A stretch of DNA of 64,000 nt from Trypanosoma brucei (taxonomy: Eukaryota), in contig CM000207.1 of the NCBI GenBank assembly GCA_000002445.1, positions 864,001 through 928,000 on the forward strand. Reading direction: 5' to 3'. The notes under the pieces were generated by a model that was not told the origin of the DNA, searched no databases, and saw nothing but the letters and a program-made list of their open reading frames with translations. A program made the position numbers and the translations under genes. This document shows, one piece after another, positions 3,595 to 44,846 of the stretch (position 1 is its first letter; each line of letters starts with the position of its first letter).

Positions 3595-5415
3595 ATGCGC
3601 CTTGGACCAGCTGCAAAAATCCTGATTCATAGGCTATCCCCACCAACGTTCCGCCGCCTTTCTTTGGCCTTTCGTGGACTCATGACAACAACGGTTGATT
3701 CCGCCCCCACTGCTGCCGAGCCCATGTTGGAGGTGAAAAAGGACCTCCGTTTATTGGAGACGGGCCGACCAGTGCAGGGATACTCCAACACGCCAGAGCT
3801 GCTGGCGAAACACCGATCCGTAACGGGTGGTGCTCCGTACTTCCGGTTCCCTCCAGAGCCCAACGGATTTCTTCACATTGGACACGCTAAGAGCATGAAC
3901 CTGAACTTTGGCTGCGCCGTTTCTCATAAAGGAAAGTGCTATTTGCGTTACGACGACACGAACCCGGAGACGGAGGAGCAGCTTTACATTGATTCCATCC
4001 ACGAAATGGTAAAGTGGATGGGATGGGAGCCAGATTGGATTACATACTCTTCAGACTACTTCCAGCAACTTTATGAATTCGCCATTCAGCTCATTAAGGA
4101 TGGAAAGGCGTACGTGGATCACAGCACCGCTGATGAAATGAAGAGGCAGCGTGAAAATCGGGAAGAGAGCCCGTGGCGTAACCGACCGGTGGAAGAGAGT
4201 TTACGACTGTTTGAGCACATGCGTCAGGGGCGCTATGCGGAGGGCGAAGCGACACTCCGCGTAAAGATTGATATGAAGAGCGACAACCCAAATATGAGGG
4301 ACTTTGTTGCCTACCGTGTAAAGTATAATGAGCACCCACACGCCAAGGACAAGTGGTGCATATATCCCAGCTACGATTACACGCATTGTTTAATTGACAG
4401 TTTGGAGAACATTGACTACAGCCTGTGCACCCTCGAGTTTGAGACCCGACGTGAGAGTTACTTTTGGTTGCTCGAGCAGCTGAACCTTTGGCGGCCTCAC
4501 GTTTGGGAGTTCAGCCGCCTCAACGTCACCGGCTCGTTGCTTTCCAAACGCAAGATTAACGTATTGGTGAAGAAAGGTATTGTACGTGGTTTTGATGACC
4601 CAAGGTTGCTGACCCTTGCAGGGTTGCGTCGGAGGGGTTACACGCCAAGAGCTATCAACCGTTTCTGTGATCTTGTTGGTATAACTCGTTCAATGAATGT
4701 GATACAAATTACCATGCTCGAGCATACCCTTCGTGAAGATCTCGACGACTCAACGGAGCGGCGCCTGATGATTATAGACCCCATCAAGGTCGTGATTGAC
4801 AACTGGGACGGTGAGATGGAGGCGGAGTGCCCCAACCATCCACGCAAACCCGAGCTCGGATCGCGTAAGGTAATGTTTAAGAAAACCTTCTACATTGACC
4901 GTAGCGACTTCCGTGTGGAGGATAACGACAGCAAATTCTATGGGCTGGCGCCTGGACGTCGTGCTGTCGGCTTAAAGTACTCTGGCAACATCATGTGCAC
5001 CCACTTTGATTTCGATGAAGCTGGTCAGCCATCGCTTATTCATGTGGAAGTCGACTTCGAGCGTACGACGAAACCGAAGACGAACATCAGTTGGGTTAGT
5101 GAGGCAGGAGCGGTTCCGGTGGAGTTCCGTCTTTACGACTACCTTCTGAGGGATGACCGTGCAGCTGTCGACTCTGACTTCCTAAAGTACATTAACGAAG
5201 ATAGCGAGAAAGTTGTCCACGGTTACGCCGAGGCAGCGATAAGAGAAGCGAAGGTATTTGAATCTGTGCAAGCGGAGCGCTTCGGGTACTTTGTGGTGGA
5301 TCCCGAAACCCGACCAGATCGCCTTGTAATGAATAGAGTGCTGACACTTAAAGAGGACAAGGAGAAAACGGCCATTAGCCGCGGGAACACGGGGGTGAAG
5401 GGAAAGAAACAGTAA
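3595..5415 (+). CDS. glutaminyl-tRNA synthetase (class I), bacterial-like length; alternative in-frame ATG at 3682
   Basis: HIGH motif region FRFPPEPNGFLHIGHAKSMNLNF, ...KWCIYPSYDYTHCLIDSLENI..., VLVKKGIVRGFDDPRLLTLAGLRRRGYT. It aligns by eye along its whole length with E. coli GlnRS and lacks the long eukaryote-specific N-terminal domain. ATG 3595 adds an R-rich amphipathic peptide MRLGPAAKILIHRLSPPTFRRLSLAFRGL ahead of MTTTVDS (3682). Confidence 0.9.
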   Translation: MRLGPAAKILIHRLSPPTFRRLSLAFRGLMTTTVDSAPTAAEPMLEVKKDLRLLETGRPVQGYSNTPELLAKHRSVTGGAPYFRFPPEPNGFLHIGHAKSMNLNFGCAVSHKGKCYLRYDDTNPETEEQLYIDSIHEMVKWMGWEPDWITYSSDYFQQLYEFAIQLIKDGKAYVDHSTADEMKRQRENREESPWRNRPVEESLRLFEHMRQGRYAEGEATLRVKIDMKSDNPNMRDFVAYRVKYNEHPHAKDKWCIYPSYDYTHCLIDSLENIDYSLCTLEFETRRESYFWLLEQLNLWRPHVWEFSRLNVTGSLLSKRKINVLVKKGIVRGFDDPRLLTLAGLRRRGYTPRAINRFCDLVGITRSMNVIQITMLEHTLREDLDDSTERRLMIIDPIKVVIDNWDGEMEAECPNHPRKPELGSRKVMFKKTFYIDRSDFRVEDNDSKFYGLAPGRRAVGLKYSGNIMCTHFDFDEAGQPSLIHVEVDFERTTKPKTNISWVSEAGAVPVEFRLYDYLLRDDRAAVDSDFLKYINEDSEKVVHGYAEAAIREAKVFESVQAERFGYFVVDPETRPDRLVMNRVLTLKEDKEKTAISRGNTGVKGKKQ

Positions 5416-7370: not shown

Positions 7371-10178
7371 ATGAGCAAACGCCGCCGTGGTGACGATGAA
7401 AGCGATATTTTCCGGAAGGCTATCGAGCTGCTGTGTCACCGCCGGGCCACAACTGAAGAACTGTCAGTTGCAACTAAGCTCACGCCTTTGGAAAGGCAGG
7501 TGGTGTGCCTCAAGGAGTCCCTTCCGCCCGATGTTATTCTGATGGTAGCGTGTGGTTACCGTGTGAAGTTTTACGGTCGTGACAGTCGCGTCGTCAGCCG
7601 CCGTTTTGGGATAATGTGCATTCAAGCAACTCCATTCGAGTATAGCAGTGTTCCTTACACAGGGGTCAATATTTATGTGCGCCGCCTGGTAGCGATGGGT
7701 TATCGTGTTGCTTTTGCGGATCAAGAGAGCGCTTCTATTCGGTCGACCAGTGGTAACTCGAAGGGGTTGTTTTCCCGAGAGATTGGGCGAGTGTACAGCC
7801 GAGGAACGATGTTGCCTGATGAGGTGGTTGTCACCGCTGGAACCCCTCAAGAAGGAAGCGCTACCGGTCAGGGGGATGAAGGGGCACCGGAAGGAGGAGA
7901 TCCCGTTGGTGTGGAGGAACTTCTCCCCTTGAAGGAGGGATCTTCGGAATTGTTTATTTGCTTCTTGTGGCCCTCAACTGGGTCGGCGGGTGTGAGCCTG
8001 GTCGAAGTGACGCTTCTCAGTTTCGTCACGTACTCTCTTTCTCGTCATCACCTGTCTTCAGGGGGAGAGCTTTTGGACATACTCAATCGCTACAATATTG
8101 TTGAGGTGGTTCTGTTTTATGATGAAGACGGAGCGCGGGAGCTCGACCGGCATCAGAACGCAGCAGCTACCGACGGCACTTTGCCTCCTTTTCGCTTGTG
8201 CGGTTTACCGGAGGCGTTTTACACACCCTTAAACACAATTCTATCGCTTCATCATGGACCGACGGTTAACGGTGAAGAGGATAATAATTCTGTAACTGTC
8301 TGCACCTCGCCATTCATCGGTTCTATCGATGACTCAATTGCAGAGTATTTAAAGCCTAGTCGATTTGATACGACCTTCAGGAAAATGTGCTCTAAATCTC
8401 CGCCGTTACTTGCGCGGAGCACGGCCGGTGGGGTGGCTGAGTTGGTAATGGAGATGCCCGGCACCACGATGAGCGCGTTGGACATATTTCACAGCAGCAT
8501 TGGGCTAAAAGGTTCTCTGCTGGCTCTATTGGACCACAGCCTTACGGTGCCTGGTCTGCGGCGGTTGCGTTCGTGGCTGGCGGCCCCGCTCTGCGACTTA
8601 CGGGCCATTAATTCTCGGCGTGAGGCGGTGGCGTTTTTACTTCGCGGCGAAGGGGGTGACTCAGTGGTGGGCCTGCTGCGAGAGTTTGCCAAGTTTGGTG
8701 ATCTCGAGGCAACACTGGGGAAGCTGCGGGCGCAGCGGTGCACTGTAACCGATTATCTTCGTTTGTTGCGTGCGGTGAAAGTGACGCATAAACTCGCTCT
8801 TGACATTTTATCACTTTGTGGCGAAGGCATGTGCGATCAGATTCGTGATGCTCTTGTTGCCGTCACGTCTGAGAATGTCGAGTTGTTCCTTCAATCGTGT
8901 AAGTGTGAGTTAAACTTGGATGCGGATTCCCCTCAGGAGTACTACGCAGCACTTGGTTCCCCCCTACCCGACCTTTTGCAGACTCATGCTAAGGAGCGCG
9001 ACGAAGTGCTACGTGCGTTGGACGTGGAGCTGGAATGCATTCGAAAGACACTCAAGTTACCTGCGTTGGAGTACCGTACAATCGCTGGCACCACATTCAT
9101 TGTGGACGTGCCCAACGTAAGGGCCAATGATGCACCGAAAGAGTGGATTGTGCTGACAAGAACAAAGACTCATGTGCGATTTCACACTCCAAGAATTGTC
9201 AATCTTACCGTGGAGCTCTGCTCCGCCAAGGAACGCCTTGCCATTGCAGCAAATGAGGCATGGTTAGCGAAGCAAGCCGAGTTGGAAGGTTCTGTCGACA
9301 CGATGGAGATATTTAAGAGTGTCATTAACTCTGTTGCTGTGCTTGACGCACTTCACTGTCTTGCTGTCGCATCTTCGGCCCCTGGATACACTGCTCCATC
9401 CATCTCAGACGATGAGCAGTCGATTGTGATCCGCGACGGACGCCACCCGATGCTTGAGTCGCTCATGCGTGGGGGCTACGTGGGGTGTGACGTTTCCCTT
9501 GTCAAGCACGGCGCGTGGATTCTCACAGGGCCCAACATGGGAGGTAAATCAGCTCTGATGCGTATGGTAGGTACGTTTGTGGTATTGGCACAACTGGGTT
9601 GCTACGTGCCTGCCAAGTCTGCGCAACTGCCCTTGTTTGGGGCTGTATACTGTCGAATGGGGTCGAGCGATTCTCTGCTGGAGGGAAGTTCCACCTTTTT
9701 GAAAGAGATGGAGGAAACAAGTCGGATCCTCCGCTCTGAGATTGTGTCCTCTTCGCTTGTACTACTGGATGAACTCGGCAGGGGAACGAGCAGTTATGAT
9801 GGTATTGCTATTGCCGCTGCGACACTGGAGTATCTGCTTCGGAAGGGTGCAACAACATTCTTCGTGACGCACTATTCGCAACTCTGTGAGCCCTATGTCA
9901 ATTCCAGCAACAACGGACTGGTGTCATGCTATTATATGGGATTTCATGAGGAAAAGATTGTGTCTAGAGAGGGCGAGGGGGAGGTAAAAATTGTATTTAC
10001 TTACAAACCAACACTTGGGGTCACGCCTTCTAGCTTTGGTGCGCGCGTGGCCCGCATGGCTGGGTTGCCCTCTGCAGTTGTAACTGAAGCGCAGCTGATC
10101 AGCGAGGAGGCGGAACGCACTCACGACTGGTGCTTGTCTCTTCTTGAATTGCGGCGCTTCGTCAAAAACAATTCTTAG
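7371..10178 (+). CDS. MutS homolog DNA mismatch repair protein, MSH3-like (935 aa)
   Basis: N-terminal mismatch-binding domain (…VACGYRVKFYGRDSRVV…), Walker A GPNMGGKSALMRMVG, MutS signature …LLDELGRGTSSYDGIAIAAATLEYL… The FYG (not FYE) mismatch-contact motif resembles MSH3 rather than MSH6. Confidence 0.85.
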   Translation: MSKRRRGDDESDIFRKAIELLCHRRATTEELSVATKLTPLERQVVCLKESLPPDVILMVACGYRVKFYGRDSRVVSRRFGIMCIQATPFEYSSVPYTGVNIYVRRLVAMGYRVAFADQESASIRSTSGNSKGLFSREIGRVYSRGTMLPDEVVVTAGTPQEGSATGQGDEGAPEGGDPVGVEELLPLKEGSSELFICFLWPSTGSAGVSLVEVTLLSFVTYSLSRHHLSSGGELLDILNRYNIVEVVLFYDEDGARELDRHQNAAATDGTLPPFRLCGLPEAFYTPLNTILSLHHGPTVNGEEDNNSVTVCTSPFIGSIDDSIAEYLKPSRFDTTFRKMCSKSPPLLARSTAGGVAELVMEMPGTTMSALDIFHSSIGLKGSLLALLDHSLTVPGLRRLRSWLAAPLCDLRAINSRREAVAFLLRGEGGDSVVGLLREFAKFGDLEATLGKLRAQRCTVTDYLRLLRAVKVTHKLALDILSLCGEGMCDQIRDALVAVTSENVELFLQSCKCELNLDADSPQEYYAALGSPLPDLLQTHAKERDEVLRALDVELECIRKTLKLPALEYRTIAGTTFIVDVPNVRANDAPKEWIVLTRTKTHVRFHTPRIVNLTVELCSAKERLAIAANEAWLAKQAELEGSVDTMEIFKSVINSVAVLDALHCLAVASSAPGYTAPSISDDEQSIVIRDGRHPMLESLMRGGYVGCDVSLVKHGAWILTGPNMGGKSALMRMVGTFVVLAQLGCYVPAKSAQLPLFGAVYCRMGSSDSLLEGSSTFLKEMEETSRILRSEIVSSSLVLLDELGRGTSSYDGIAIAAATLEYLLRKGATTFFVTHYSQLCEPYVNSSNNGLVSCYYMGFHEEKIVSREGEGEVKIVFTYKPTLGVTPSSFGARVARMAGLPSAVVTEAQLISEEAERTHDWCLSLLELRRFVKNNS

Positions 10179-10582: not shown

Positions 10583-12049
10583 ATGCTTTCCCTATATGCG
10601 TACATTTTCCTAAGTTTGGTGGTGACTATAGGCTTCGTCGTCGACTATGCCACCGTTTACACTGATTTCTTTTCGTTAGTTGTTGCGCTGACAGACTCCC
10701 CCATATTCCGCCTCTTGTGCGTGAACAGCTTCATAGCGTTATCATGGGTCCTTTGGCTTGTTGCCCGCTTCACCTTCTTTGGCACGTTGAGCCGCACCGA
10801 AAGCGACGCGGTGCGGAGTGTTACGCCTGTGTATGCTATGGAATTTATTGTTTGCCCCCTTTATTTCGGTATCTCCACACTGAGTTCCGCAGGTGTGGTT
10901 TCACTTGTTACTGTGGTTGTTGCGGTTCTCCATCGCCTTGCACAGGAGCGCGTATCAACACTTCAAGTGATGGAGGATCGGGTGTTACGTACACCTATGC
11001 TTGTCCGGCTGCTGATTTTCCTGTACCTTTTCTCCATGATCGACCTCTATGTTGTGTTTGATATGATTGGGAATACGGCAGAGAGCTATGGAGATCAACT
11101 GTCTATGCAGTATTGCATAGCCTTATTGTATGTACAGTTCCTTATATCCATTCTCAAGTCGTTTACGCAACTCTTCTTCACCGTGGCCACCAAGGAGTCG
11201 ACGTACAACAGCCTGGCCTTCTATATGGAGATGTTTTTTTCCCTCTCCAACAATGTGGTGTTCTTCATTTCATTTCTGTACATTTGTACTTCATCGTACG
11301 TTCCCTTTCCGCTTATGCGCATGTTTTTACAAAACATGATAATGTGCGGGAAGAACGTTCGCCTCGTCGCGCGATACAGGAAACTTACGGCTCTTTTGAG
11401 AGAAATACCAAACGCCACCGAAGAGATTTTGTCCCGTGACCCGCACTGTGCTATATGTTACGATGATATGTCGCCTGATCAAACATGCAAGCAACTCCCA
11501 TGTGGGCACTGTTATCATGAGGCGTGCTTGCTCCACTGGTTTGAAAAAATGTCAACGTGCCCCTACTGCAGAAGCGACATCGCTCAGCGAACCAGTGCTA
11601 TGGCAGCGTATGCGAAAAGGGTTCGGGTTCCGGCGGATGCCACCACTACACCATCGGAGCAGACGGGATCTGATGCGTCAGCAACTCCGTCCCCCGAGGA
11701 CGATACGACAAGCATGCCAATGCCTAGCGAGGAGGAAATGCGGAGGTCATATGAGCGGTACCTAGCAGAAATGGCTTCGCGGCAGCGGGCGCAGGGGGCC
11801 GCCATCTCAGCTGAAGCCGATGCTTCGCGCTTGGGGGAGGAGGTTTCTGCAGCATCAACCGATCGCTTCTCAGTGGTTGAGGAGATAAACAAAAGTCTCA
11901 CTCAGAGTAACGCTGTCAGGTCAGTGGATGTCCCAGCAGTGAGTACGAAGGAGGCGCAACGTCTAGCAGCTTACGAGGAGCACGCTGCGGCTGTAAGGGC
12001 CGCGCAAGAGAAACTACAGCAACGTCTGAAATCCATTGATGCCTCCTAG
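10583..12049 (+). CDS. multi-pass membrane RING-H2 E3 ubiquitin ligase (Hrd1/synoviolin-like architecture)
   Basis: About 250 aa of hydrophobic segments followed by CAICYDDMSPDQTCKQLPCGHCYHEACLLHWFEKMSTCPYCRSDI (C3H2C3 RING-H2), then an acidic, S/T-rich tail. Confidence 0.75.
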   Translation: MLSLYAYIFLSLVVTIGFVVDYATVYTDFFSLVVALTDSPIFRLLCVNSFIALSWVLWLVARFTFFGTLSRTESDAVRSVTPVYAMEFIVCPLYFGISTLSSAGVVSLVTVVVAVLHRLAQERVSTLQVMEDRVLRTPMLVRLLIFLYLFSMIDLYVVFDMIGNTAESYGDQLSMQYCIALLYVQFLISILKSFTQLFFTVATKESTYNSLAFYMEMFFSLSNNVVFFISFLYICTSSYVPFPLMRMFLQNMIMCGKNVRLVARYRKLTALLREIPNATEEILSRDPHCAICYDDMSPDQTCKQLPCGHCYHEACLLHWFEKMSTCPYCRSDIAQRTSAMAAYAKRVRVPADATTTPSEQTGSDASATPSPEDDTTSMPMPSEEEMRRSYERYLAEMASRQRAQGAAISAEADASRLGEEVSAASTDRFSVVEEINKSLTQSNAVRSVDVPAVSTKEAQRLAAYEEHAAAVRAAQEKLQQRLKSIDAS

Positions 12050-13786: not shown

Positions 13787-14775
13787 CAGCGGTTGTTAGT
13801 GCATGTCACAGCTGGAAGCAACATGCTTTCCGTTTTTGTTTGTCGCATTACATTTGGCTTGTAAGTGGCTGAATGTAACTCATTATGGGTTCAGGTTGTT
13901 TGGGCAGCTACCATCGCTGTGCTTGGTTGTGTTTTGCCCTTGTCTACTATATCGTGACTTCCTACTTTGCCTAACGTCCCTTTCCCCGTTTTCATGTACC
14001 TGAAACCTCCCTGCTTACCATTGCACTCCGTCGCCGCCCACGCTGCCGCTGCGGCGCTAATTTTTCGTCGCACTTTCTTGTTTACTTCCCTTATAGTTAT
14101 CTTTATTCCATGCAAAAGCAAATATGTTGGCCCAAAAGGAAAGCCATTGTTTGCCATTTGTACAATTTGTGTTCCATGTCACAGACGAAAGTTGGGTTGT
14201 GGTCGGTTAAGTGTCTTGCGTCGCGGTTTATGGTCTTCTCTTTCCAACAGACCAGCTACAGCGATGGTATGCCAACTGAAGCCGACACGAGCGGAGAGGG
14301 TAAAGAAGCTGCGGGAAGGGGTTGCGGAGGAGTGTAAATCAACTTATCAGCCTTAGTACGCTGCATATCCTGAGTTGCAACGATGTGTTTTCACAATTCA
14401 CTGTTGGTGAGTTGGCGCGCGTTCTGCGGCGTGTGTGTGGTGGTGGAGGGAAACAACGGTTATCGCTTTTTCACTTTACCCTTTTGTGGCTCGCGGTGCT
14501 GTAAACTGATTCTTGTGCATACTTAATAGTTTTCAGGTGTAATTAAGAAAGCAATCGGCAGGAAGGAGTAATACGCGTTGTTGTTTCGTCTTACTCCTTC
14601 TGGTGGCTGCTCGTTTTGCTGTGATGAGTGGGGCCATATTGGTGTATATTATGTTGCACACGGCTTACAAAACCATCAGCAGTCCCACTAGGGTTGTAAT
14701 GGAGAAGTTGAACTTAGGGTGCAGAACAACATGTGACATCCGTGCTTGTCACTGTTCACCGGTGGCTGAATGCAT

Positions 14776-14816
14776 GTTTCTTCCTTTGCTTTCACTTTCC
14801 ACATTTCTCTCGATAG
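14776..14816 (+). promoter_or_regulatory. polypyrimidine tract + AG upstream of the Nop56/58 gene
   Basis: tgtttcttcctttgctttcactttccacatttctctcgatAG, 30 nt upstream of ATG 14846. Confidence 0.45.
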
Positions 14817-14845
14817 TTTGTGCAGCTTTGTGTTTTCTGAGGAAA

Positions 14846-16129
14846 ATGGTTTTTGCCTTATTGGAGTTGCCTGCGGGTGTGGGGCTCTTTAAGGTGGACG
14901 GCGACAAGCAAAAACTGAAGGCACTATTAAGCTTCAAGAGTACTGCGGATGCTCTTGCCACCACAACACAAGTTGTGAATGGTGAGCTCGCGAAGCCCGT
15001 GCGCAAGTTCCTCAAGAAAAACTTTGTTGAGAAACAAATAACGGAGGAATTAGCAGTCGCCGATGCAAAGCTCGCAAAAGCCATAAAGGATGCCCTCGCT
15101 ATTCAGTGCGTGCATGGTGACGACACTTTGGCCACATTCCGCGCCCTGCGCGCAAACCTTGACGACCTGCTCGAGGATGTTTCAACAGAGCAACTCAACC
15201 AGACAGCACTAGGTCTCGCGCATAATTTGAACCGCTACAAGCTGAAATTTTCCCCGGACAAGGTGGACATGATGGTGGTGCAAGCCGTAGCGCTGCTGGA
15301 GGATTTGGACAAGGAGATCAACAAATATGCGATGCGAGCGCGTGAGTGGTACGGCTGGCACTTCCCTGAATTGGCGAAGATCGTCAATGATAATATACTT
15401 TATGCGAAGATTGTGTTGGCTGCGAAGACCCGCTTCAACGTCCGCGACACCGATTTCTCTGACTTCCTTGAGGAGGAGTTGGAGCAGAAGGTAAAGGATG
15501 CGGCGATGGTGTCAATGGGCACGGAGATCGCTGAGGAGGACATCGAGAACATTTGCCGGCTTTGTAGCGAGGTTGTTGCGGCGTCGAAGTATCGTGAGAG
15601 TCTTGCCGCGTACCTCAGCTCCCGCATGCAAACAATCGCTCCAAATCTCACCACAATGGTTGGTGAGCAGATTGGCGCCCGGCTGATTCAAAAGGCGGGT
15701 TCACTGCTATCACTTGCGAAGTACCCCTCTTCCACCCTACAGATCCTTGGTGCTGAGAAGGCACTCTTCCGTGCTCTCAAGCAACGGCAGGCAACGCCAA
15801 AATACGGTATTCTTTACAACGCTCAGGTGGTGGCAAAGGCGGCTGCCACCCACAAGGGCGCCATGTCCCGCGTGCTTGCCGCAAAGGCCTCTCTTAGCGC
15901 CCGTATTGACTCATTTGGCGAGGGCGACAACTCTGCAGCACTGGAGTACCGCGGTAAAGTTGAGGAACGCCTTCGGCAGTTTGAAGAGGGTGTCACATAT
16001 GGCCGTACGGGTAATGTACGAGGCAGGGGTGGTGGTATGCAGCTGCAACAGAAACGAGGACCTCCTAATGGCAATGGTGGGGGGGCTCCCTTCAAACGCC
16101 AACGGCTGGACGGCGGTGGGTTCAGGTAA
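14846..16129 (+). CDS. Nop56/Nop58-family box C/D snoRNP core protein (427 aa)
   Basis: MVFALLELPAGVGLFKVDGDK (Nop5 N-terminal domain), …EWYGWHFPELAKIVNDNILYAKIVL… (Nop domain), G/R-rich C-terminus. The listed ORF start 14603 is GTG and crosses a polyY tract; the conserved N-terminus begins at ATG 14846. Confidence 0.85.
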   Translation: MVFALLELPAGVGLFKVDGDKQKLKALLSFKSTADALATTTQVVNGELAKPVRKFLKKNFVEKQITEELAVADAKLAKAIKDALAIQCVHGDDTLATFRALRANLDDLLEDVSTEQLNQTALGLAHNLNRYKLKFSPDKVDMMVVQAVALLEDLDKEINKYAMRAREWYGWHFPELAKIVNDNILYAKIVLAAKTRFNVRDTDFSDFLEEELEQKVKDAAMVSMGTEIAEEDIENICRLCSEVVAASKYRESLAAYLSSRMQTIAPNLTTMVGEQIGARLIQKAGSLLSLAKYPSSTLQILGAEKALFRALKQRQATPKYGILYNAQVVAKAAATHKGAMSRVLAAKASLSARIDSFGEGDNSAALEYRGKVEERLRQFEEGVTYGRTGNVRGRGGGMQLQQKRGPPNGNGGGAPFKRQRLDGGGFR

Positions 16130-17312: not shown

Positions 17313-17333
17313 GTGTGTGTGTGTGTGTGTGTG
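17313..17333. repeat. (GT)n microsatellite
   Basis: gtgtgtgtgtgtgtgtgtgtg. Confidence 0.9.
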
Positions 17334-17495: not shown

Positions 17496-18638
17496 ATGCA
17501 GCGCTGTAAGCTTCTGCGTTCTATTGATTTTAGCGGCGTTCGGCTACCCCGAAAGTACATATCTATGGGCGGATGGTGCGGCCCTGCGTTGTTGCTCGGG
17601 AAGGTGGGGCTACGCACTGAGGCCTATCCTTTTGACTTTAGCCGGTGTACCCTCGATGGTATTTTACATTTCATCCAGAACGGTTTCTCGTGCGGCTTTT
17701 ACCCACCGGAGCCGCCTCCATATAAACCTGAATGCGTTGGCATTTGGGTTTTATTTCGCGGACTGCATACAGCCTTTGCTCACTTCGACCTTAACGATCC
17801 CAAAATAAAGGCCCAGTTCAGTCGCAAGATGGCTCGTTGGAACAACATCATTGATAAACCAGATATGCCGGTCACCTTCTTTCGCTCTATAGTTTCCCGC
17901 GATCCTCTGGAGGAGGTTCATCTCATGCCCGCAGTTGAGGCCGCCATCGCGGCGCGAAACCCCTCTCTTGACTTTCGCATTGTTATGATTGCACATGATC
18001 AAGGTCTTGTTGCCCGCAGTGTGGAGCTCAAACCACTCTCCAAGAGGATATCGCTGTGGGTACTGACATATACTCGCGACGATACCTTCACTCTCTTTGA
18101 CCGCTCGCAGGAGGCTTATACTGATATTGTTTTGCACAGTGTCAACGAGGAGAACTGGCCGCTCGATCCAACGACGGTGCCACAGCCCGTCGGACTGACG
18201 GAGTCCGAGGCGGATTATCAGCAGTGCGTTTTGCGGAAGGCTGATGGAACAGACGTAAGTTTCGAATCCTTAACGGCCAGTGGGTTTCCATGGCGCAGCC
18301 ATACCAACCTTTCTCTTATCGACGGTGTGGCTAGTGTGGGCGGCACTTGCACTGGTATTGGTAGCACAAAGTGCGTTGGTGGACGCTGCGCGTTTTGCAG
18401 TAACACAGATTATCACAAGGCTGGGCGACCGTTTCACAGTGAGCGTCCCTTCACGATAGAGGAGGATGAGTTGATACTGGTTCATCTTTACCGCATCCTC
18501 ACCGGTGGGGACAAAGTAGAGGCAGTTGAAGACCTTGCTCACCAGATGAAACGGGGTGCGTTTGAAGTAATCTGTCGAATTCAGCATTTGACAAACTCCA
18601 GTGTGAAGATAATGGATTACTCAAGTGATGGAGCGTGA
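17496..18638 (+). CDS. hypothetical protein (380 aa) with N-terminal DUF1796-like (putative papain-fold) motif
   Basis: …YISMGGWCGPALLLGKVGLRTEAYPFDFSRCTLDGILHFIQNGF… matches by eye the bacterial DUF1796 N-terminal signature (S-L/M-G-x-x-C-x-x-A-x-x-L-x-x-x-G-L-R-x-x-x-x-P-F-D-W/F). The rest is non-repetitive. Confidence 0.55.
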   Translation: MQRCKLLRSIDFSGVRLPRKYISMGGWCGPALLLGKVGLRTEAYPFDFSRCTLDGILHFIQNGFSCGFYPPEPPPYKPECVGIWVLFRGLHTAFAHFDLNDPKIKAQFSRKMARWNNIIDKPDMPVTFFRSIVSRDPLEEVHLMPAVEAAIAARNPSLDFRIVMIAHDQGLVARSVELKPLSKRISLWVLTYTRDDTFTLFDRSQEAYTDIVLHSVNEENWPLDPTTVPQPVGLTESEADYQQCVLRKADGTDVSFESLTASGFPWRSHTNLSLIDGVASVGGTCTGIGSTKCVGGRCAFCSNTDYHKAGRPFHSERPFTIEEDELILVHLYRILTGGDKVEAVEDLAHQMKRGAFEVICRIQHLTNSSVKIMDYSSDGA

Positions 18639-20406: not shown

Positions 20407-20857
20407 TGCTGGGGGCTGGGGGCTCAACAGGCTGCAACTTTGTCGTGTAAAAGCAGTTTTTTTTTAAAAAATGTACTGTTTTGTGGGTTTGTGGAAAATA
20501 GATGAATTCCCACCGAGGGGAAAAAATTGTCCTCGACGGCCACAGTACGGGTAATACACGAGTCGTTTGCCTCTTTTTACTTTTGGTGTTGCTTGGAACT
20601 GTTGTCATATGCGCAGCGGCTGCATCTTGCAATTGCAGTAGGGCATATACAGTGCGGCGTGAGGTAGAAAAAGGAAGTGTTTGTGCGCGGTGTGTGCACG
20701 TGTACCTTTGTTAACGACGTCCGCCTCCTCATTGTTCCGCAAACTCTTCGCTCCTGAGGAGGTTGCCGCGGCGTATGCAACGCTCCAGGAGTCTCAACTA
20801 TTTGACAAGGCACCATCTCTTTTCCGCGTGAGTTGGCGTAACGATGGTCAAGTGCCA

Positions 20858-21469
20858 ATGCGCTCTAAGATGGAACTGTCAGTCCCACTGCTTCGCATGC
20901 GGACCGGTGCAAAGCATGAAATTCCCTCGGCACTGCTACTAGTTGCTCAAGGTCTCGAGGCTGCGGCAATGGATTTTGCTTACGGTATAGCACAGCAACC
21001 GTCCATGCAATCTTGGGCGGGTGAGGACCTTCTCAAGGACATTGGACGACGTTCTGTCTTTCGAATATGGCGGTACGACGCTGGTGTTGGGTGTAGACCT
21101 CATTACGATCCTGGAATTTGCACTGCGCTTTTGAAAGCTTCTGCTGGGGGGTTGGAATTTGGCAAATATCCATGCAGAAGCCATGGTAATGATGAAAATA
21201 CATTGCTGCAACCCGACTGGTTTCCTCCACAACTGCCGGTGGATACTGCCGACACCATGGTATTGGCGGGGAACATGACAGGGCTCCTATCAAGAGGTGC
21301 GATTCCCGCCGTGCTGCACCGCGTGCGCTCCGACTGGGCCGACCATGTGGACTCCAAACGTTATAGTCTCGTTGTAGAGCTACGCCCGGCGGAGCCTAAC
21401 CGTTGGTATAAACTACTTGGGCATTGCAGCGTCGCTCACGGCTGCGTTTCTCTTAGAGGATGCGGCTAA
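20858..21469 (+). CDS. 2-oxoglutarate/Fe(II)-dependent oxygenase-like protein (start uncertain)
   Basis: HxD…H…RxS arrangement: …CRPHYDPGICTALLKASAGGLEF… then …AIPAVLHRVRSDW… and …KRYSLVVELRP… The listed ORF start 20681 is TTG. The upstream in-frame translation looks protein-like, so the true start or reading frame is uncertain. Confidence 0.45.
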   Translation: MRSKMELSVPLLRMRTGAKHEIPSALLLVAQGLEAAAMDFAYGIAQQPSMQSWAGEDLLKDIGRRSVFRIWRYDAGVGCRPHYDPGICTALLKASAGGLEFGKYPCRSHGNDENTLLQPDWFPPQLPVDTADTMVLAGNMTGLLSRGAIPAVLHRVRSDWADHVDSKRYSLVVELRPAEPNRWYKLLGHCSVAHGCVSLRGCG

Positions 21470-33890: not shown

Positions 33891-35163
33891 ACTTGTGTGT
33901 CTTTTCGTCGTTAGTTGCGTATCGGGGTGCATGTAGGGGAAGTGCAGATGTGGAGTGCCACTCTTTTTTGCCGCTCGCGATACGTGGCGTTAGACTGAAA
34001 GTGATATGTTTTGCGGCATCTCTGTGTACGCTTACTCATCTGCGCTTGAAACTGCATAATACCACGAGTGACGAAAAGAGAGAGAGACGGATAAAAGGAA
34101 TGAATGAATGAAAAAAAACACTGAAAATACCAATAGAAGAGGAGAGGTTGAAGAGATTTTGTCATGTTATCTTTGTTGCGTATTAGTGGCTGCTTATTTC
34201 CTTTGTGGTGGCAACAGGTTTCATTTTTTTCCTTTTTTTTTTTCATTTCATCACTTACCGTTTTTTATTTATTTTAATTTGTTAACGGTCTGTCGCTGCT
34301 GCGTGTTTTCGATAGCTATGAGTTGTTACTGATCCTCCTTCCACCTCCAGAAAAAGGAACAAAATAAGGTAAACAAAACGACCACCGGAGGGGAATTGGG
34401 AAGTAAAAGCAGAGAAAAGAGAAAATAAATCTAGGGGCTGATTGATGGAGTGTTCGAGAGGTTTCGTGGCGGAATAAATTAACGTGAACCAACAACTTCA
34501 TCGTGAAAAGCAAAGCAAAAGGGAGAAGGCAAAACAAAACAGAATGGGGAAAAGAAGGGCAAAACTTTTTTATTTGTATACATTTGCGCTTGTGTTTGTG
34601 TCTGTTTGAGGGTGCGTACAAGAGGAAAATGATATTAATAATATTTAAAATCTTAACGGAGGGGCCGACGTGACGGCAGAGTTCTCCCAGGGGACAAACG
34701 TAAGCTCACACACACGCACATCAAATACACATACACATACATATGCATGGCGGGGGAAGAAAGCAAAAACAACAGCAAATAAACACATAAATTAGAAGGA
34801 GAGATTTTATTCAAAGGAAAATATGATGGAAATGGACGCAGTCCTTCCACCGCAGGAGGAGGAACTTCAAGTCTTGTTTTTCTTTTTATTCTTTCTGTTC
34901 TGTTTGTCGGCCCCGTTTCCGCGTTATTTTTGTTTGTTATTTTTGCGTTTTTTTTTTGTGAACCAACAACGAAAGACTCTGAAATGTATTTTTGGAGCCA
35001 TTTTACCGTTGTCGCATTACGTGTGTGTTCTTTTTTTTTAAAAAAATGATTAGCTTACCCGAATGTCGACTTTCCTTTGCTTGTTCAGCCCTTTTGCCTT
35101 CCGTTTCCTTCAACAAAAAGAGAGGAAGAAAAGTTAAACTGTTTCTTGTTTACTGTGTTGACG

Positions 35164-35182
35164 TATATATATATATATATAT
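35164..35182. repeat. (TA)n microsatellite
   Basis: tatatatatatatatatat. Confidence 0.9.
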
Positions 35183-35576
35183 TTGCCCTCTTTTCGTTAG
35201 TCCCTTCTTTTTTTCCTTTTATTGTCTTTCTGTCTCTTTGCGCCCATTTTTTTTTTTTAATTCTGCTGCTGTTAGTTTCCCCCTTTCCTTTCCCTTAACT
35301 TTTCTTTTATCTTCATTCCTCACTCTCCGCTGTGTCTGTGGGATGTGTTGCGAATTGAGTAGATGGAGAGGGTGCGATCAAAATGTATGTGTCTGTGCGT
35401 ATATGGAGATGTTGTGGTAAACCGTAGTTTTGAGGTAACTGTTATCACAAGCGTTGTTAATTTTGCCGGGGCATTGTAACAATCACGATGAGTGATTTCC
35501 ATCGTTTGATTGGATGAATCTATATGTGCGTCATTACGAACCCTCCCCTTTTCGCTTCTTCTAAAATATCTGAAAA

Positions 35577-35596
35577 TATATATATATATATATATA
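35577..35596. repeat. (TA)n microsatellite
   Basis: tatatatatatatatatata. Confidence 0.9.
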
Positions 35597-36152
35597 CATA
35601 AATGTTTATTCATACGCGAACGTGCGCGTCTTTGTTTGCTTTATCAGGGTCACGCCCTCGGTATCCTGTGCTATCTTTTTTTCTCATGTTGTGAACCAGA
35701 CGGTGAAGGTTAATTGCGTTTCTTTCCTCACTTTTTCCTATTGCATTTCAATGGGTCGCGTAGTAGTGTCAACCGGGCATTTACATATTTAAGTACACAT
35801 ATCTACGTAGGCCTGACTCTTTCTTTCTTTGGAGAGTTCGCGCTACTGCAAAGATACAGTTGCGGGACCGCTGCCGGTTTTAGCTGCTTTTACCGTCAAA
35901 GCTTGTCCTAATTGTCACAGCTTCCCTCGTAAGTGGATCGAGCTTTGTGTACGTGAACTTAAGATTCTTCGGAACATTCTCTCACAAAGTAGTTCACAGG
36001 TTAGGAGGGAAGAAAAGGGGTTTTGAATTGGCGCTGCAACGGCGTAGTGACTCGTAGCGCTGCACGACCACTTGTAGCTTGCAAGCTGCACTTTTACTTT
36101 TATTATTATTATTATTATTTAAATACGCTCCTTTTGCCGTCTAAGGTACTAA

Positions 36153-38177
36153 ATGAGTGGATCGTTGAACGTGGAGCAGGGGCCGCGTGAAGCGTCACCG
36201 GGATCGGCGACACTGTTGGATTCACCGGCGGCAACAGGAATGAGTACCCGCCACGCAGAGCAAGTGGTTCAGAGTATCAAAGTCTTGTATGAGCTTCATA
36301 AAAGCGGTGCCCTTTCACTCGAGGAATTCAACGCAGCAAAACAGCAAATCCTGTTTCCACCTCATTCGTTACTATCGGTGTCGGGACGGTCAAGTGAGGT
36401 AGGGCATGCAGAATACGTGAGAAGTAGGCACATCAAAAAAAGGGAAAACCGCGGTAGCAAACGCGGTTCAAGTCACTGGAGCAGCACGAGCAGCAGCAGT
36501 AGCAGTATCAGCACAGTTAGTAACTTTATGGTCGCACCCCGCCCGAGAGTGTGGTTGCCCCTCGTTGATGAAGGATCTGGCGATGGTGTAAATCATGACG
36601 CCGTAATGAAAGAGGAGTTAGATGAGGGATTCCTCTCTGGACCCGTGGATAAGGCGGGATACTACTCGCTTCGGTCAAGAACTCTATCCCAGGACCGGGG
36701 AAGACCCTGTGCGCCGCCGAGCAGCAACGGCCATGGGAGTAACCTGAAGCGTTATGGTACATTTAGGTCCCCATGGCCCGTCGTGATTGGTGACACCAGC
36801 ATCCCCAAAGAATCTGTTCGGGCACCGATGCTCCCCGTCAATCAAGTGTTTGTGGAATACTTCAACTGCCGCGGCGAGCGGGGTCAAACGTTTAGCAGCG
36901 TGGAACTCAAGGAACATCAGTTGCGTCCACCCCTCTTTCTTCATAAGCGGTTTGCTACAGGGCAGCGTGAGAGGGTACCGGAGGCGCTAAGTACTTTGGC
37001 CCATACGCAGGAACTGGTTCCGTCTGAGTCTGCAGTTTTGCATGAAGAATATCCAGCAGCAGAACCGCCGGATGCCCCTTCCGTATCGGGGAACTCCAGT
37101 TTAGAGTTGTGCCTTAACTGGTATTGGGTAGATATGGTGGGTCGTGACCCCTCGGAGGTAATGTACAAAAATGCTCTCCGTCATTTGACGAAGCAGTTTG
37201 ATATTGCAGAATCTTTTCTACTGGACCGCGAACACCCTCTGGTGTTACCGCAGATTTGCAGTTCCCCTGAGGATCCCTCGCAGTTCCTAATTTGCCTCCG
37301 TGTTGCCACAGCTAAAATTGCGCTCGATGATGACAGTGTAAAGGAACTTACGAACCGCTGGATTCTCGTAGTAGATCTGAAGCGAAAGGTTGTCATCACC
37401 ATCCACCGCATGGATAGTTCGTATATTGCCAACATGCGCTATCACTGGAAATCATTGATGGAGCGAAGTGACATATCATTCGAAGAGTTTCTTGTGAGGA
37501 TCATGCATGACGCGGTCTGTACATACACCAGCCATCTAATTGCCCACTCCGATATTCTCGAGAAATGCGAGGCAAAGCTCTTTGTTTCCAGTCGCAGGGG
37601 GACAAATAATGTTCCGGGTACCGAGTACAGCGCTAGCAAGCAGCATGCTGAAGGGAGGATCTTCTCACTTTTTGTCGATGGTTCCTCATCACCGTTTCTC
37701 TTGAAGTTGATGGATACAAAAAATAAAGAGCCGATGGATAAGGGGCTCATGAACATTTTCCTTTATCATTTACATCGTCGTGCGAGTGTTCACCACCGTG
37801 TACTTAATATGACGAGGGTAGTGCTTTCCGAGAGCTTCACAAAACTTGGACTTTGCAGCAAGGAATATGCGGATGAGATGTGTGTACACTGCATAGAGCT
37901 GATCGACCGCGCGCTAGAAATTTGCGATGATGCCAAAACTCTCCTCGACATGCATATTTCTTTGCAATCGTTTCGAACGAACGAACTAATGGCGCTTCTA
38001 ACGAAATTTTCGGCCTTCTTCACACCTAGTTCTTTCCTTGCCGCAGTGTATGGTATGAATTTTCCCCACATACCTGAGTTGCAATGGGCATGGGGCTATC
38101 CATGCTATTGGTTGGCATGTATTGTGGCTTGTGTCCTCATATATCTTTACATGTACCGACGAGGACTTCTGGAGTAG
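36153..38177 (+). CDS. CorA/Mrs2-family Mg2+ transporter-like protein (674 aa) with long N-terminal extension
   Basis: C-terminal …AVYGMNFPHIPELQWAWGYPCYWLACIVACVLIYLYMYRRGLLE carries the GMN signature and two terminal TM helices. N-terminal …VVQSIKVLYELHKSGALSLEEFNAAKQQIL is SHOCT-like. Confidence 0.85.
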   Translation: MSGSLNVEQGPREASPGSATLLDSPAATGMSTRHAEQVVQSIKVLYELHKSGALSLEEFNAAKQQILFPPHSLLSVSGRSSEVGHAEYVRSRHIKKRENRGSKRGSSHWSSTSSSSSSISTVSNFMVAPRPRVWLPLVDEGSGDGVNHDAVMKEELDEGFLSGPVDKAGYYSLRSRTLSQDRGRPCAPPSSNGHGSNLKRYGTFRSPWPVVIGDTSIPKESVRAPMLPVNQVFVEYFNCRGERGQTFSSVELKEHQLRPPLFLHKRFATGQRERVPEALSTLAHTQELVPSESAVLHEEYPAAEPPDAPSVSGNSSLELCLNWYWVDMVGRDPSEVMYKNALRHLTKQFDIAESFLLDREHPLVLPQICSSPEDPSQFLICLRVATAKIALDDDSVKELTNRWILVVDLKRKVVITIHRMDSSYIANMRYHWKSLMERSDISFEEFLVRIMHDAVCTYTSHLIAHSDILEKCEAKLFVSSRRGTNNVPGTEYSASKQHAEGRIFSLFVDGSSSPFLLKLMDTKNKEPMDKGLMNIFLYHLHRRASVHHRVLNMTRVVLSESFTKLGLCSKEYADEMCVHCIELIDRALEICDDAKTLLDMHISLQSFRTNELMALLTKFSAFFTPSSFLAAVYGMNFPHIPELQWAWGYPCYWLACIVACVLIYLYMYRRGLLE

Positions 38178-38523
38178 ATACCATGATTCTGTTGCCCGCG
38201 TCGACACCAAAAGAAAAGAAAAGAGAGAAAGAAAGAAAAAAAAAAGAAGATCCAACTTGAAGGAGGCGATACCTCATTTCTTCTTTCACTCTTTTACCGT
38301 TTATGATTTTTTTTTGTTACTTTTGGGAATCATGTAATTTCGCATTACGTGTTGTTGTTTTTTTTTTAAATAAAAAAAAAGGGGGGTTCGTTCCACAGTG
38401 TGTGTTTGTGTGTGGATGGGCAGGAACGAAGTTTTTTAATTAAAAAAAAAGCATATTTGTGTGCATCTGCGTGGCTGCTCGCATCTGTGCTTATGTTTGG
38501 TCGCAATACCGATAGCAGCACGA

Positions 38524-38525
<2 letters not shown>

Positions 38526-38557
<32 letters not shown>
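38526..38557. repeat. (AT)16 microsatellite
   Basis: atatatatatatatatatatatatatatatat. Confidence 0.95.
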
Positions 38558-38560
<3 letters not shown>

Positions 38561-39422
38561 GAGGGCTGATGAGGAAGTTTGACGCCAAGTCATATGTGTG
38601 AAGTCCGTTATACTTTGATTTGTTTCACATATTCCTCTCCCTTCAATCTCTTCGTAAGCGTTAATGCGCCTTCTTTGTTCATACTGCTGCTTACCACGTG
38701 GTCCCGAAATGTCACCGCTACCCTTATCACCATTCGAACTACCGTGTTCAGCAAAACTAAAACTAAGTGGTCGAATGAACATAACTTTCTTCTGTTGTCT
38801 TTTCTCCTTTACCTTCTCTGTGTCATATCAATAAATATATATATCTCCTGTTCTTGTTTTTATTAGTGACCGTCCCCCACTGCTAGTGTCAGTTGTATAC
38901 ATATATAATCATATATATATACATATACATATACTTAGGTTCGTTAGTTATATTTTACCTTAATTGCGGTTGTGGTTGTTCCAAACATTTTGTTTCTATT
39001 TGGAGGCAAAGAAAACACAAATACGCACACGAGCACCCAAATATATTACATAGAAGGGGAAAGACGTTGACAGCGAAGAAGAGAGGGAGTGTGTAAAATA
39101 TATAGTGGAGAGAGGGTGGTAACAAAAAAAATTGGTAAAGAAATTCGCGTCTGTTTCTTTTTTTTTTTGCAAGGGAGACCGTCGAAAGGAAGATAAGGAT
39201 TTTTTTTTGTGTGTGAGTGTGTTGTTGGTGTGCGTGAAGCTGAGGAAGGTAAAAAAAAAAAGTTCGTACCGTGTTACCGTAATTGCTTTACTTTTTTTTT
39301 TGTTTCTTTTCGCGATTTTTGTCAGTAAGTTTGTTGTTGCATATACGTATATACTTGTATAACGTAACCTCGCGCCTGTATATTACCTACAAGTGCACGT
39401 GCGTTGAACTTAACACAGTGCC

Positions 39423-43451: not shown

Positions 43452-44806
43452 AGGAAAGGCAAAAAACAAAAAAAGCCATCAGAGTTCTTGGTTCTATGAA
43501 CTACTTCTTTGAAGTCCCTTCACCGAAGCGCCTAATCAGTGGGAATAATATAATGTGTACGTGTATATGTATGAATGTATGTGTGTTGGGGTTGGGGTGG
43601 GGTAACAGTGGGGGGAAAAAAGAATAAGAAGAGGAGGAGGAAGCGTGTGAGAACATTTGATTATTTGGGGTATGCACACCTGGGATATGTCCCCATTACT
43701 GCTGAACACTTACATGAAGACACGCGTACAGACGTGAATATATAATATGCATATATGAACTCCGTCATCAGGGATACAGAATTTCTTTTTCTTTCCTACT
43801 TTTACATTGTTAGTCTTCCGGTGTTTTTTTTTTCCCCTTTCCTGTTTGTGCTATTTTTCTGCCGTGCATTTTTTTTTGTATTTGTGTGGCAGTGGTGAAG
43901 CAGTCGCCTTTCTTTTGATGTTTGCCCACATCTTTTGCTCTGCCTCACAAAGGGCAAGTTTGTTTGTTTCTTTCTCTGTGTGTTCGTGAATAAAATTGTT
44001 ATTATTACCAATGAACTGTTTGGCTCACGGCAAAAGAGAGAGGGGGGGGAAATGCATATTTTGTCCACCTGCACTACAGCCATAGGTGAGGGAAAACAGC
44101 GGCATTGAGATCGGAGAAGGAATGGATAGTTGAATTTTGAGTTTACTTTACTTTACTTTTCTTTTTGTTTAGTTTTGCGTGCTTTTGTGGCTTCGCCAAG
44201 TAATGATGATTACTTGGACGTTTTGGCTCTTCCGTATTGCTGTTCATTATCCCTGCGTTTAAATGTTGACTTGTGATGGACAATTAACATTTGTGCAGAG
44301 GGTGAATGCATCAACGATGAAGGAAAGAAAGAAAAAGAAGAGGAGAAAAGAAAATGGGAGACAATGTTGCCCATTTTTTTTTTTTTAAAGGCCCTTCTTT
44401 CTCGTTGTTTTGTTTTTTGTTGTTGTATTGGCCCCCTCTTTGTGTGGCTCAGTGGCGCTTTTTAGGTGTGCTTACGCCTGTGTCTTTTCGTGTCTGCATG
44501 TGTATGTGTATGTGTATGTGTGTGCATGTGTGTTGTGTTTTTTTTTTACTTTTCCTCCTAATTCTTCTCTTACTTCTTTTTCTTTTTTTTGTCTCAGCGG
44601 GAAACTCAAAGAGCAACATTCCCGCCACCTTTCATCATTATTATTATTATTGTTATTTATTTATTTATTCCTTTTACCTTCTCTTTTCTATTTGGTCCTC
44701 CTTCTCCTCTGCTGTGGGCTCCGTGGCCCATGCGTCAACACACAATAAGGTGCATGCGCACAGACGGTATACAGCTGCATATGCATACGTTCATTTATAT
44801 TTATAT

Positions 44807-44808
<2 letters not shown>

Positions 44809-44846
<38 letters not shown>
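44809..44846. repeat. (AT)19 microsatellite
   Basis: atatatatatatatatatatatatatatatatatatat. Confidence 0.95.

What the first reader, a model, noticed from the sequence alone, without database searches (positions are those of the whole stretch)
17496..18638. Bacterial-type DUF1796-like (putative papain-fold) N-terminal motif in a trypanosome hypothetical protein
The segment ISMGGWCGPALLLGKVGLRTEAYPFDF reproduces the SLGxxCxxAxxLxxxGLRxxxxPFDW signature of DUF1796, which I know mainly from Firmicutes proteins. A eukaryotic homolog would suggest either an ancient horizontal acquisition or an unrecognised wider family. The Cys in GGWCGPA sits where the putative catalytic Cys sits in that family.
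Basis: inference. Interest (0 to 1): 0.55.

Follow-up and report, generated by a model that had tools for sequence, protein, structure and literature searches.

The report
Known DUF1796 protein, doubtful protease label
The motif is real, but the gene (Trypanosoma brucei Tb927.9.5330) is already annotated as a DUF1796 family member; the new point is that the family's "papain-like peptidase" name is probably wrong, because its predicted fold and its gene neighbours in viruses and bacteria point to sugar-chain (glycan) chemistry.

The parts
17496..18638 (+). Complete ORF of Tb927.9.5330 (380 aa, 42.6 kDa, UniProt Q38F22), including the stop codon
   Evidence: ORF listing. 100% identity to RHW70702.1, in one 90%-identity cluster with XP_803839.1 of TREU927. 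Both TrypTag tagging primers encode the two ends of this ORF.
17496..17549 (+). Basic N-terminal extension (residues 1-18, MQRCKLLRSIDFSGVRLP, pI 10.8); possible organellar presequence (inference)
   Evidence: Present as 19-22 residues with 2-5 K/R and 0-1 D/E in all trypanosomatid orthologues examined. Absent from bodonid and Perkinsela orthologues and from the paralogue clade. Residues 1-6 have pLDDT below 50. Protein abundance fell to 0.63-fold on ATOM40 RNAi.
17550..18143 (+). DUF1796 domain (residues 19-216; Pfam match 19-170, nt 17550-18005); predicted alpha/beta/alpha sandwich
17559..17639 (+).
   Evidence: Conservation: S23 91%, G25 100%, C28 98%, P45 99%, F46 96%, D47 98% of 222-237 members.
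17781..17789 (+). H96-F97-D98: conserved His-x-Asp at the C-terminal end of strand 92-95; candidate general base and its orienting acid
   Evidence: H96 in 228 of 240 sequences; D98 is D in 195 and N in 37 of 240. Strand assignment.
17883..18002 (+). Further family-wide polar residues R130 (98%), E140 (95%) and Q169 (93%), at or just after the C-terminal ends of strands 126-131 and 160-167. H167 (47%) is conserved only within the clade.
18144..18443 (+). Middle region (residues 217-316): variable acidic linker, then a small beta-rich module carrying the Cys3His knuckle
   Evidence: Alignment gaps and insertions in this region. Block-mean pLDDT is 91-97 for residues 221-310 and 76 for 311-320. 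No Pfam hit.
18342..18416 (+). Putative zinc knuckle G283-T-C285-x-G287-x-G289-S-T291 ... C298-x2-C301-x5-H307
   Evidence: C285, G287, C298, C301 and H307 are invariant in 68 sequences. Metal binding is inferred, not tested.
18444..18602 (+). Acidic SANT/Myb-like three-helix bundle (residues 317-369; helices 321-335, 340-351, 355-368)

Best explanation
Tb927.9.5330 is a genuine and already annotated member of Pfam DUF1796, vertically inherited throughout Kinetoplastea.

Its N-terminal domain is predicted to be a three-layer alpha/beta/alpha enzyme domain resembling flavodoxin-like and SGNH folds, not a papain fold. A conserved polar set lies at or next to the C-terminal ends of the strands: C28 at the N-terminus of helix 1, H96-x-D98, D47, R130, E140 and Q169.

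The most likely mechanism is covalent or general-base catalysis. C28 would act as nucleophile and H96/D98 as base, carrying out a group transfer or hydrolysis on a sugar, glycoconjugate or similar small substrate. The Arg residues would bind an anionic group. Proteolysis is unlikely.

The clade-specific C-terminal Cys3His knuckle and acidic SANT-like bundle most likely tether the enzyme to a partner or substrate rather than to DNA.

Shown here: family membership, residue conservation, predicted fold class, phyletic spread, and gene neighbourhoods and fusions. Inferred: active-site geometry, chemistry, substrate, zinc binding and localisation.
For: Membership: 222 bits, full-length match; identical protein already named.

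Conservation.

Glycan context:
- Nostocales locus with GT1/4, Wzm, Wzt, TylF methyltransferase, DUF1796, methyltransferase, AsnB.
- Viral loci next to GlmS, AsnB, PfkB + cytidylyltransferase, and Methyltransf_24.
- Fusions to GT_PLOD, GT2 and CBM20, plus a sub-threshold GT90 match.
- A 615-aa Pyramimonas orientalis virus structural relative is annotated 'Glycosyltransferase'.
- In Moumouvirus australiensis and Cotonvirus japonicus, two 'Papain-like' genes flank a glycosyltransferase inside the fibril-glycosylation cluster, beside a sulfotransferase and an APS kinase (PMC10117803). Ma462 is 188 aa, the same length as the M. australiensis hit.

C-terminal module. Localisation is not nuclear: the N-terminally tagged protein is 'cytoplasm'.
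Against: - I could not read model coordinates, so the spatial clustering of C28, H96 and D98 is inferred from topology.
- Neighbourhood evidence comes from viruses and bacteria. Kinetoplastid gene order carries no functional information, and the trypanosome protein, with its extra module, may have a different substrate.
- About half of the non-redundant loci have no glycan-related neighbour, and several neighbour matches are below Pfam thresholds.
- The authors of PMC10117803 report HHpred confidence above 99% for 'papain-like'. This may only echo the Pfam family name.
Confidence: 0.55

Rival explanations
1. The Pfam label is right: DUF1796 is a divergent papain-like (clan CA) cysteine peptidase, and Tb927.9.5330 cleaves a protein or isopeptide substrate using C28, H96 and D98.
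For: The Pfam description. Cys at the N-terminus of a helix, followed by a conserved His-x-Asp/Asn on a strand within an antiparallel hairpin region 79-95. 'Papain-like' was reported at above 99% HHpred confidence for the viral homologues (PMC10117803).
Confidence: 0.12
2. DUF1796 is itself a new type of glycosyltransferase that depends on a nucleotide sugar or similar donor. D47, E140 and H96 would act as base and the conserved Arg residues would bind the diphosphate. C28 would be structural.
Against: No Pfam or PDB sequence link to any GT family. A 98%-conserved Cys at a helix N-terminus beside a His-x-Asp pattern is more typical of covalent catalysis. In the giant-virus clusters the DUF1796 genes sit beside dedicated glycosyltransferases and modification enzymes, which fits a tailoring role better.
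Confidence: 0.15
3. The trypanosome gene was acquired recently from bacteria (Firmicutes) by horizontal transfer.
For: One Lachnospiraceae MAG copy exists.
Against: Orthologues occur across Kinetoplastea, including Perkinsela and Trypanoplasma, and there is an ancient paralogue clade. The best identity to any member outside the clade is 37%, and the mean to bacterial members is 26%. Local GC is 0.48-0.50, like the rest of the window. The Pfam model scores kinetoplastid proteins highest.
Confidence: 0.03
4. It is mainly a chromatin- or nucleic-acid-binding factor. The SANT/Myb-like domain and zinc knuckle would do the work, and the DUF1796 domain would be a non-catalytic scaffold.
For: The C-terminal three-helix bundle resembles homeodomain and Myb DNA-binding domains. 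The Cys3His motif is invariant.
Against: The bundle is acidic (pI 5.4). The N-terminally tagged protein is cytoplasmic, not nuclear. All family-wide polar residues of the DUF1796 domain are retained, and orthologues are 74-80% identical within Trypanosoma. Both points argue for a constrained active enzyme.
Confidence: 0.08

Closest known systems
Pfam PF08795 / DUF1796 ('putative papain-like cysteine peptidase'), kinetoplastid orthologues (T. congolense, T. cruzi, Leishmania, Leptomonas, Perkinsela)
   Same: Full-length domain match, the same three-module architecture, 55-80% identity. It is one of them.
   Different: Nothing of substance. The T. brucei lineage seems to lack the second paralogue seen in T. 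theileri and Angomonas. This was judged only from the hit list.
Giant-virus 'papain-like' proteins: Moumouvirus australiensis Ma462/Ma464, Cotonvirus ORF_721/723, and Borely moumouvirus, Catovirus, Megavirus lba and Bodo saltans virus homologues
   Same: The same domain and predicted fold. The short viral/bacterial subfamily keeps the conserved residue set. Equally uncharacterised.
   Different: Mostly single-domain proteins of 166-327 aa. The short-type representatives I could test lack the knuckle and SANT module. About 26% identity to the trypanosome domain. The Moumouvirus and Cotonvirus genes are located inside fibril-glycosylation clusters (PMC10117803).
SGNH/GDSL hydrolases and SGNH-type O-acetyltransferases (e.g. 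CE3 2vpt, Lip_vut3 6nkd, OatA 6vjp, OafB 6se1)
PDB 2g6t (uncharacterised Clostridium acetobutylicum protein, homologue of H. influenzae HI1244)
   Different: 14% identity and no profile-level sequence match. Its function is unknown. My recollection that it belongs to DUF1919, a family seen in EPS and capsule loci, could not be verified here.
Papain-like (clan CA) cysteine peptidases
   Same: Cys at a helix N-terminus and a downstream His with an acidic or amide partner, in the same sequence order.
   Different: The predicted fold is not the papain alpha+beta fold, and no structural match was found.
SANT/Myb/homeodomain three-helix bundles
   Different: No Pfam hit even at E up to 10. The Trp triad is not kept. 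Net acidic. It is preceded by an unusual Cys3His knuckle.

Membership tests
Pfam PF08795 DUF1796 | Score above the curated gathering threshold of the family HMM | tested here: met
   222.2 bits against a 23-bit cut-off, E = 4.4e-66.
Pfam PF08795 DUF1796 | Full-length coverage of the domain model | tested here: met
   Residues 19-170 align to profile positions 1-166 of 166.
Pfam PF08795 DUF1796 | Family-wide signature residues (SxGxxC, PFD, FxHxD, R, FxR, E, Q) | tested here: met
   S23, G25, C28, P45, F46, D47, F94, H96, D98, R114, F128, R130, E140 and Q169 are all present. Each is conserved in 88-100% of about 240 members.
Papain-like cysteine peptidases (clan CA) | Papain fold: a helix bearing the Cys packed against an antiparallel beta-sheet or barrel bearing the His | tested here: not met
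Papain-like cysteine peptidases (clan CA) | Cys, then His, then Asn/Asp catalytic residues in that order and adjacent in space | tested here: inconclusive
   C28, H96 and D/N98 are conserved in the right order.
Papain-like cysteine peptidases (clan CA) | Peptidase activity | not testable with these tools
   No biochemical data were found. The gene and the family name are absent from the searchable trypanosome literature.
SGNH/GDSL hydrolase superfamily | Conserved blocks I (GDS), II (G), III (GxND) and V (DxxH) | tested here: not met
   No Pfam GDSL-type hit at E up to 10. The motif after strand 1 is SxGxxC. No conserved DxxH exists, and H167 is 47% conserved.
SGNH/GDSL hydrolase superfamily | SGNH-type alpha/beta/alpha fold | tested here: inconclusive
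SANT/Myb-like domain (C-terminal module) | Three-helix bundle of homeodomain-like topology | tested here: met
SANT/Myb-like domain (C-terminal module) | Match to Myb/SANT sequence models | tested here: not met
   No Pfam match for residues 201-380 or 269-380 other than two insignificant hits (DDRGK and DnaD_N, E about 0.2).
Myb-type DNA-binding domain | Basic DNA-contacting surface and nuclear localisation | tested here: not met
   pI 5.4 with 9 D/E against 6 K/R. The TrypTag N-terminal fusion is 'cytoplasm'.

The most novel reading that the evidence does not exclude
DUF1796 is a previously unrecognised family of Cys/His-dependent glycan-tailoring enzymes on an SGNH-like scaffold, shared by kinetoplastids, dinoflagellates, giant viruses and some bacteria and mislabelled as peptidases. 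In trypanosomatids the Tb927.9.5330 protein would be imported into the mitochondrion through its short basic N-terminal extension. There it would take part in the cryptic mitochondrial glycosylation pathway implied by the essential mitochondrial fucosyltransferase FUT1 (from my own knowledge of Bandini et al. 2021 and Guo et al. 2021; not checked here). The knuckle and SANT-like module would select the substrate.
Probability: 0.12. Interest if true: 0.7.

Novelty: already known. Interest (0 to 1): 0.3.

Why it matters
As stated, the finding adds nothing, because the trypanosome protein already carries this family name in public databases.

What may matter is the correction. The name 'papain-like cysteine peptidase' is propagated automatically to kinetoplastid, dinoflagellate and giant-virus proteins. 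It has already led authors of a giant-virus glycosylation study to set two cluster genes aside as unrelated to glycosylation (PMC10117803).

If the family is really a glycan or small-molecule tailoring enzyme, three consequences follow:
- Drug-target lists of trypanosomatid 'peptidases' contain a false entry.
- Giant-virus and bacterial glycan clusters gain an unassigned enzymatic step.
- Kinetoplastids have a conserved enzyme, 74-80% identical across Trypanosoma, whose substrate is unknown.

Tried and rejected
- NCBIfam scan: no hit.
- PDB sequence searches with the protein and with the family profile: nothing significant.
- Foldseek against afdb50: library not installed.
- First prokaryote genome scan with the single protein: no relatives.
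- The second prokaryote scan used only one peptide pattern, so the 4 loci found are a lower bound.
- Scan of viral contigs for a kinetoplastid-type copy: none.
- Annotated-collection searches returned few organism names.
- Literature searches for DUF1796, PF08795, the wrong neighbouring IDs (Tb927.9.5340 and 5360) and then the right ones (Tb927.9.5330, Tb09.160.3830, Q38F22): no trypanosome paper.
- The structure-based kinetoplastid re-annotation paper does not mention the gene in its held supplements.
- I tried to verify that 2g6t belongs to DUF1919 by fetching a Lactococcus plasmid DUF1919 gene. The accessions are not in the plasmid collection, so that link remains a recollection.
- The RNAi fitness screen paper (my guess at its PMC id) is not held.
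- Rejected idea: H167 as a catalytic His analogous to SGNH block V. It is only 47% conserved.
- Rejected idea: nuclear DNA binding by the Myb-like module. It is acidic, and the tagged protein is cytoplasmic.

Full report
**Observation.** The window has an ATG-to-TGA ORF at 17496-18638 on the + strand encoding 380 aa. A Pfam scan gives a single hit, PF08795 DUF1796 ('putative papain-like cysteine peptidase'), at E = 4.4e-66 and 222.2 bits against a 23-bit cut-off. Residues 19-170 cover the whole 166-position model. NCBIfam and PDB sequence searches find nothing.

**Identity of the gene.** The protein is 100% identical to RHW70702.1, 'putative papain-like cysteine peptidase (DUF1796) [Trypanosoma brucei equiperdum]'. 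It clusters at 90% identity or more with XP_803839.1 of T. b. brucei TREU927 ('hypothetical protein, conserved') and with T. b. gambiense C9ZXR2. The downstream gene is ARP3, which is Tb927.9.5350 (PMC7581878). The TrypTag primer table settles the ID. The C-terminal tagging primer for Tb927.9.5330 (old ID Tb09.160.3830) encodes ...AFEVICRIQHLTNSSVKIMDYSSDGA. The reverse complement of the N-terminal primer encodes MQRCKLLRSIDFSGVRLPRKYISMGGW. These are the two ends of this ORF. The importome tables give UniProt Q38F22 and 42.6 kDa. All long ORFs in the window are on the + strand: MutS homologue, Hrd1-like RING ligase, Nop-domain protein, this gene, ARP3, a 2OG-Fe(II) oxygenase and a RabGAP. This is an ordinary kinetoplastid polycistronic unit, so gene order says nothing about function.

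**Is it 'bacterial-type' or horizontally acquired?** No.
- Orthologues at 74-80% identity occur in other Trypanosoma species. Orthologues at 55-61% occur in Leishmania, Leptomonas, Strigomonas and Novymonas. Orthologues at about 47-57% occur in Trypanoplasma borreli and other bodonid-like transcriptomes, and Perkinsela has one too. A divergent paralogue clade exists in T. theileri and Angomonas.
- An exhaustive phmmer search of 1.84 billion cluster representatives with the domain alone finds only 398 clusters at E ≤ 1e-3.
- Where names could be recovered, the non-kinetoplastid members fall into three sets. Dinoflagellates (Noctiluca, Symbiodinium) often carry two or three tandem copies. Giant viruses account for 30 IMG/VR loci, many labelled GVMAG, with an NCLDV major capsid gene in the flank of six loci. 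Named viral relatives are in Catovirus, Yasminevirus, Borely moumouvirus, Megavirus lba, ChoanoV1, Moumouvirus australiensis and Bodo saltans virus. A few bacterial MAGs also carry it: Nostocales, Chlamydiae, Patescibacteria, Lachnospiraceae and a gammaproteobacterium.
- The trypanosome protein scores 222 bits against the Pfam model. Perkinsela scores 164, dinoflagellate proteins 129-177, the cyanobacterial copy 97 and the Lachnospiraceae copy 66. The model is therefore centred on kinetoplastid-like sequences.
- Mean identity of the orthologue clade is 38% to the paralogue clade. It is 25-26% to dinoflagellate, viral and bacterial members alike, and no outside sequence exceeds 37%.
- Local GC is typical of the window.
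- Caveat: the prokaryote scan used one peptide pattern, so I cannot say how common the family is in Firmicutes.

**Catalytic residues.** I aligned 242 members to a profile of 24 diverse domains. In T. brucei numbering the conservation is G25 100%, P45 99%, C28 98%, D47 98%, R130 98%, D98 97% as D or N, F46 96%, H96 95%, E140 95%, Q169 93%, S23 91%, R50 91% and R114 88%. H167, invariant among kinetoplastids, is only 47% conserved family-wide.

So the 'papain fold' is not supported. The domain is a three-layer alpha/beta/alpha sandwich with no close solved relative. The conserved polar residues sit at or just after the C-terminal ends of strands, where such folds usually have their active sites. 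This last point is inferred from topology, because I could not read the coordinates.

**Context in organisms where context is informative.**
- In a 163-kb Nostocales contig the gene lies between a GT1/GT4 glycosyltransferase, Wzm and Wzt ABC-exporter subunits and a TylF-type O-methyltransferase on one side, and a SAM methyltransferase and an AsnB-type amidotransferase on the other.
- Among 13 non-redundant protein groups from viral and bacterial loci, the neighbours include GlmS (L013), AsnB (L029), a PfkB kinase with cytidylyltransferase resembling HldE (L032), and a 47-bit Methyltransf_24 protein with a sub-threshold GT2-like protein (L035). Sub-threshold Methyltransf_24-like and GT1-like proteins occur in L025-L028. 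The other groups show unrelated neighbours: A32 ATPase, VLTF3, ThyA, capsid.
- Fusion partners among 102 long relatives are rare but are mostly carbohydrate-related. They are GT_PLOD (2), GT2, CBM20 and a sub-threshold GT90 match, against one protein with weak PH and Kelch matches. No peptidase-related partner was found. A 615-aa structural relative in Pyramimonas orientalis virus is annotated 'Glycosyltransferase'.
- The Megavirinae glycosylation study (PMC10117803) is the most telling. It lists two 'Papain-like' genes (Ma462 of 188 aa and Ma464 of 204 aa in M. australiensis; ORF_721 and ORF_723 in Cotonvirus). They flank a glycosyltransferase inside the fibril-glycosylation cluster, beside a sulfotransferase, an adenylyl-sulfate kinase, an aminotransferase and an acetyltransferase. 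The authors excluded them as 'not strictly related to glycosylation'. The M. australiensis hit in my viral fold search is also 188 aa. The two Borely moumouvirus hits have accessions two apart (A0A6G6ABG5 and ABG7), which is consistent with the same arrangement. The identification of Ma462/Ma464 as DUF1796 rests on names and lengths, not on sequences I could read.

**Localisation hints.** TrypTag reports 'cytoplasm' for the N-terminal fusion, and C-terminal tagging gave no cell line. Trypanosomatid orthologues share a basic extension of 19-22 residues before strand 1 (pI 10.8). Bodonid and Perkinsela orthologues and the paralogues lack it. In whole-cell SILAC after ATOM40 knock-down the protein fell to 0.63-fold (replicates 0.56, 0.68, 0.66; p = 0.017; 2 peptides). 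It is not in the defined importome or in either reference set. An N-terminal tag would mask a presequence, so a mitochondrial location is possible but unproven.

**Conclusion.** The bacterial/HGT framing is wrong, and the papain fold is not supported. The best-supported reading (confidence about 0.55 for the whole statement) is a conserved kinetoplastid enzyme. Its DUF1796 domain would be a Cys/His-dependent transferase or hydrolase on an SGNH-like scaffold, acting on a sugar-type substrate, and it would be tethered by a clade-specific knuckle and SANT-like module. Component confidences are about 0.99 for family membership, about 0.8 for 'not a papain fold' and about 0.45 for glycan-type chemistry in the trypanosome itself. 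No experiment on any family member was found.

Noticed in passing
L001:3024-3857; L035:6583-7737; L025:2177-2911; L028:2564-3172: A TylF/Methyltransf_24-type methyltransferase lies directly upstream of, or one small ORF away from, the DUF1796 gene. This occurs in a cyanobacterium and in three viral locus sets whose methyltransferases did not cluster with each other by BLAST at 1e-8. Two of the four matches are below the Pfam threshold. It may be a functional gene pair.
   Followed up: partly
Viral fold-search hit A0A2H4UVS2: Bodo saltans virus, a giant virus that infects a kinetoplastid, encodes a 327-aa DUF1796 relative. Virus-host exchange of this family within kinetoplastids is conceivable. 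I could not obtain the sequence to place it in a tree.
   Followed up: no
P0082, P0091 (Noctiluca scintillans cluster), P0102: Dinoflagellate-type proteins of 800-940 aa carry two or three tandem DUF1796 domains with a very conserved SLGCYCGPKLSF...GRGAETLPFDW motif. This is a lineage-specific expansion.
   Followed up: partly
L005:232-1074 (-) and L005:4001-4603 (+): Two DUF1796 genes lie within 4 kb on one viral contig. This echoes the paired 'papain-like' genes in the Moumouvirus and Cotonvirus glycosylation clusters.
   Followed up: no
L004:3878-4444 and 4425-4979: The Lachnospiraceae MAG copy matches only the first 129 of the model's 166 positions. It is followed by an overlapping ORF in another frame with a GxGxxG-like motif (VVIYGAGNLGKA). 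This could be a frameshifted gene, a pseudogene or an assembly error.
   Followed up: no
window about 17313-17332: A (GT)n microsatellite of about 20 nt lies roughly 170 nt upstream of the start codon. It is followed by pyrimidine-rich stretches that could be a trans-splice acceptor region.
   Followed up: no
window 34001-36000, 38001-40000, 44001-46000: Three 2-kb bins have GC of 0.39-0.41 against about 0.48-0.50 elsewhere. They fall in gaps between the long + strand ORFs and are probably AT-rich intergenic regions.
   Followed up: no
window 20681-21469 (+): The gene after ARP3 has a borderline 2OG-Fe(II) oxygenase match (23.3 bits against a 23-bit cut-off). Other neighbours are a MutS homologue (7371-10178), a synoviolin/Hrd1-like RING ligase (10583-12049) and a Nop-domain snoRNP protein (14603-16129).
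   Followed up: partly
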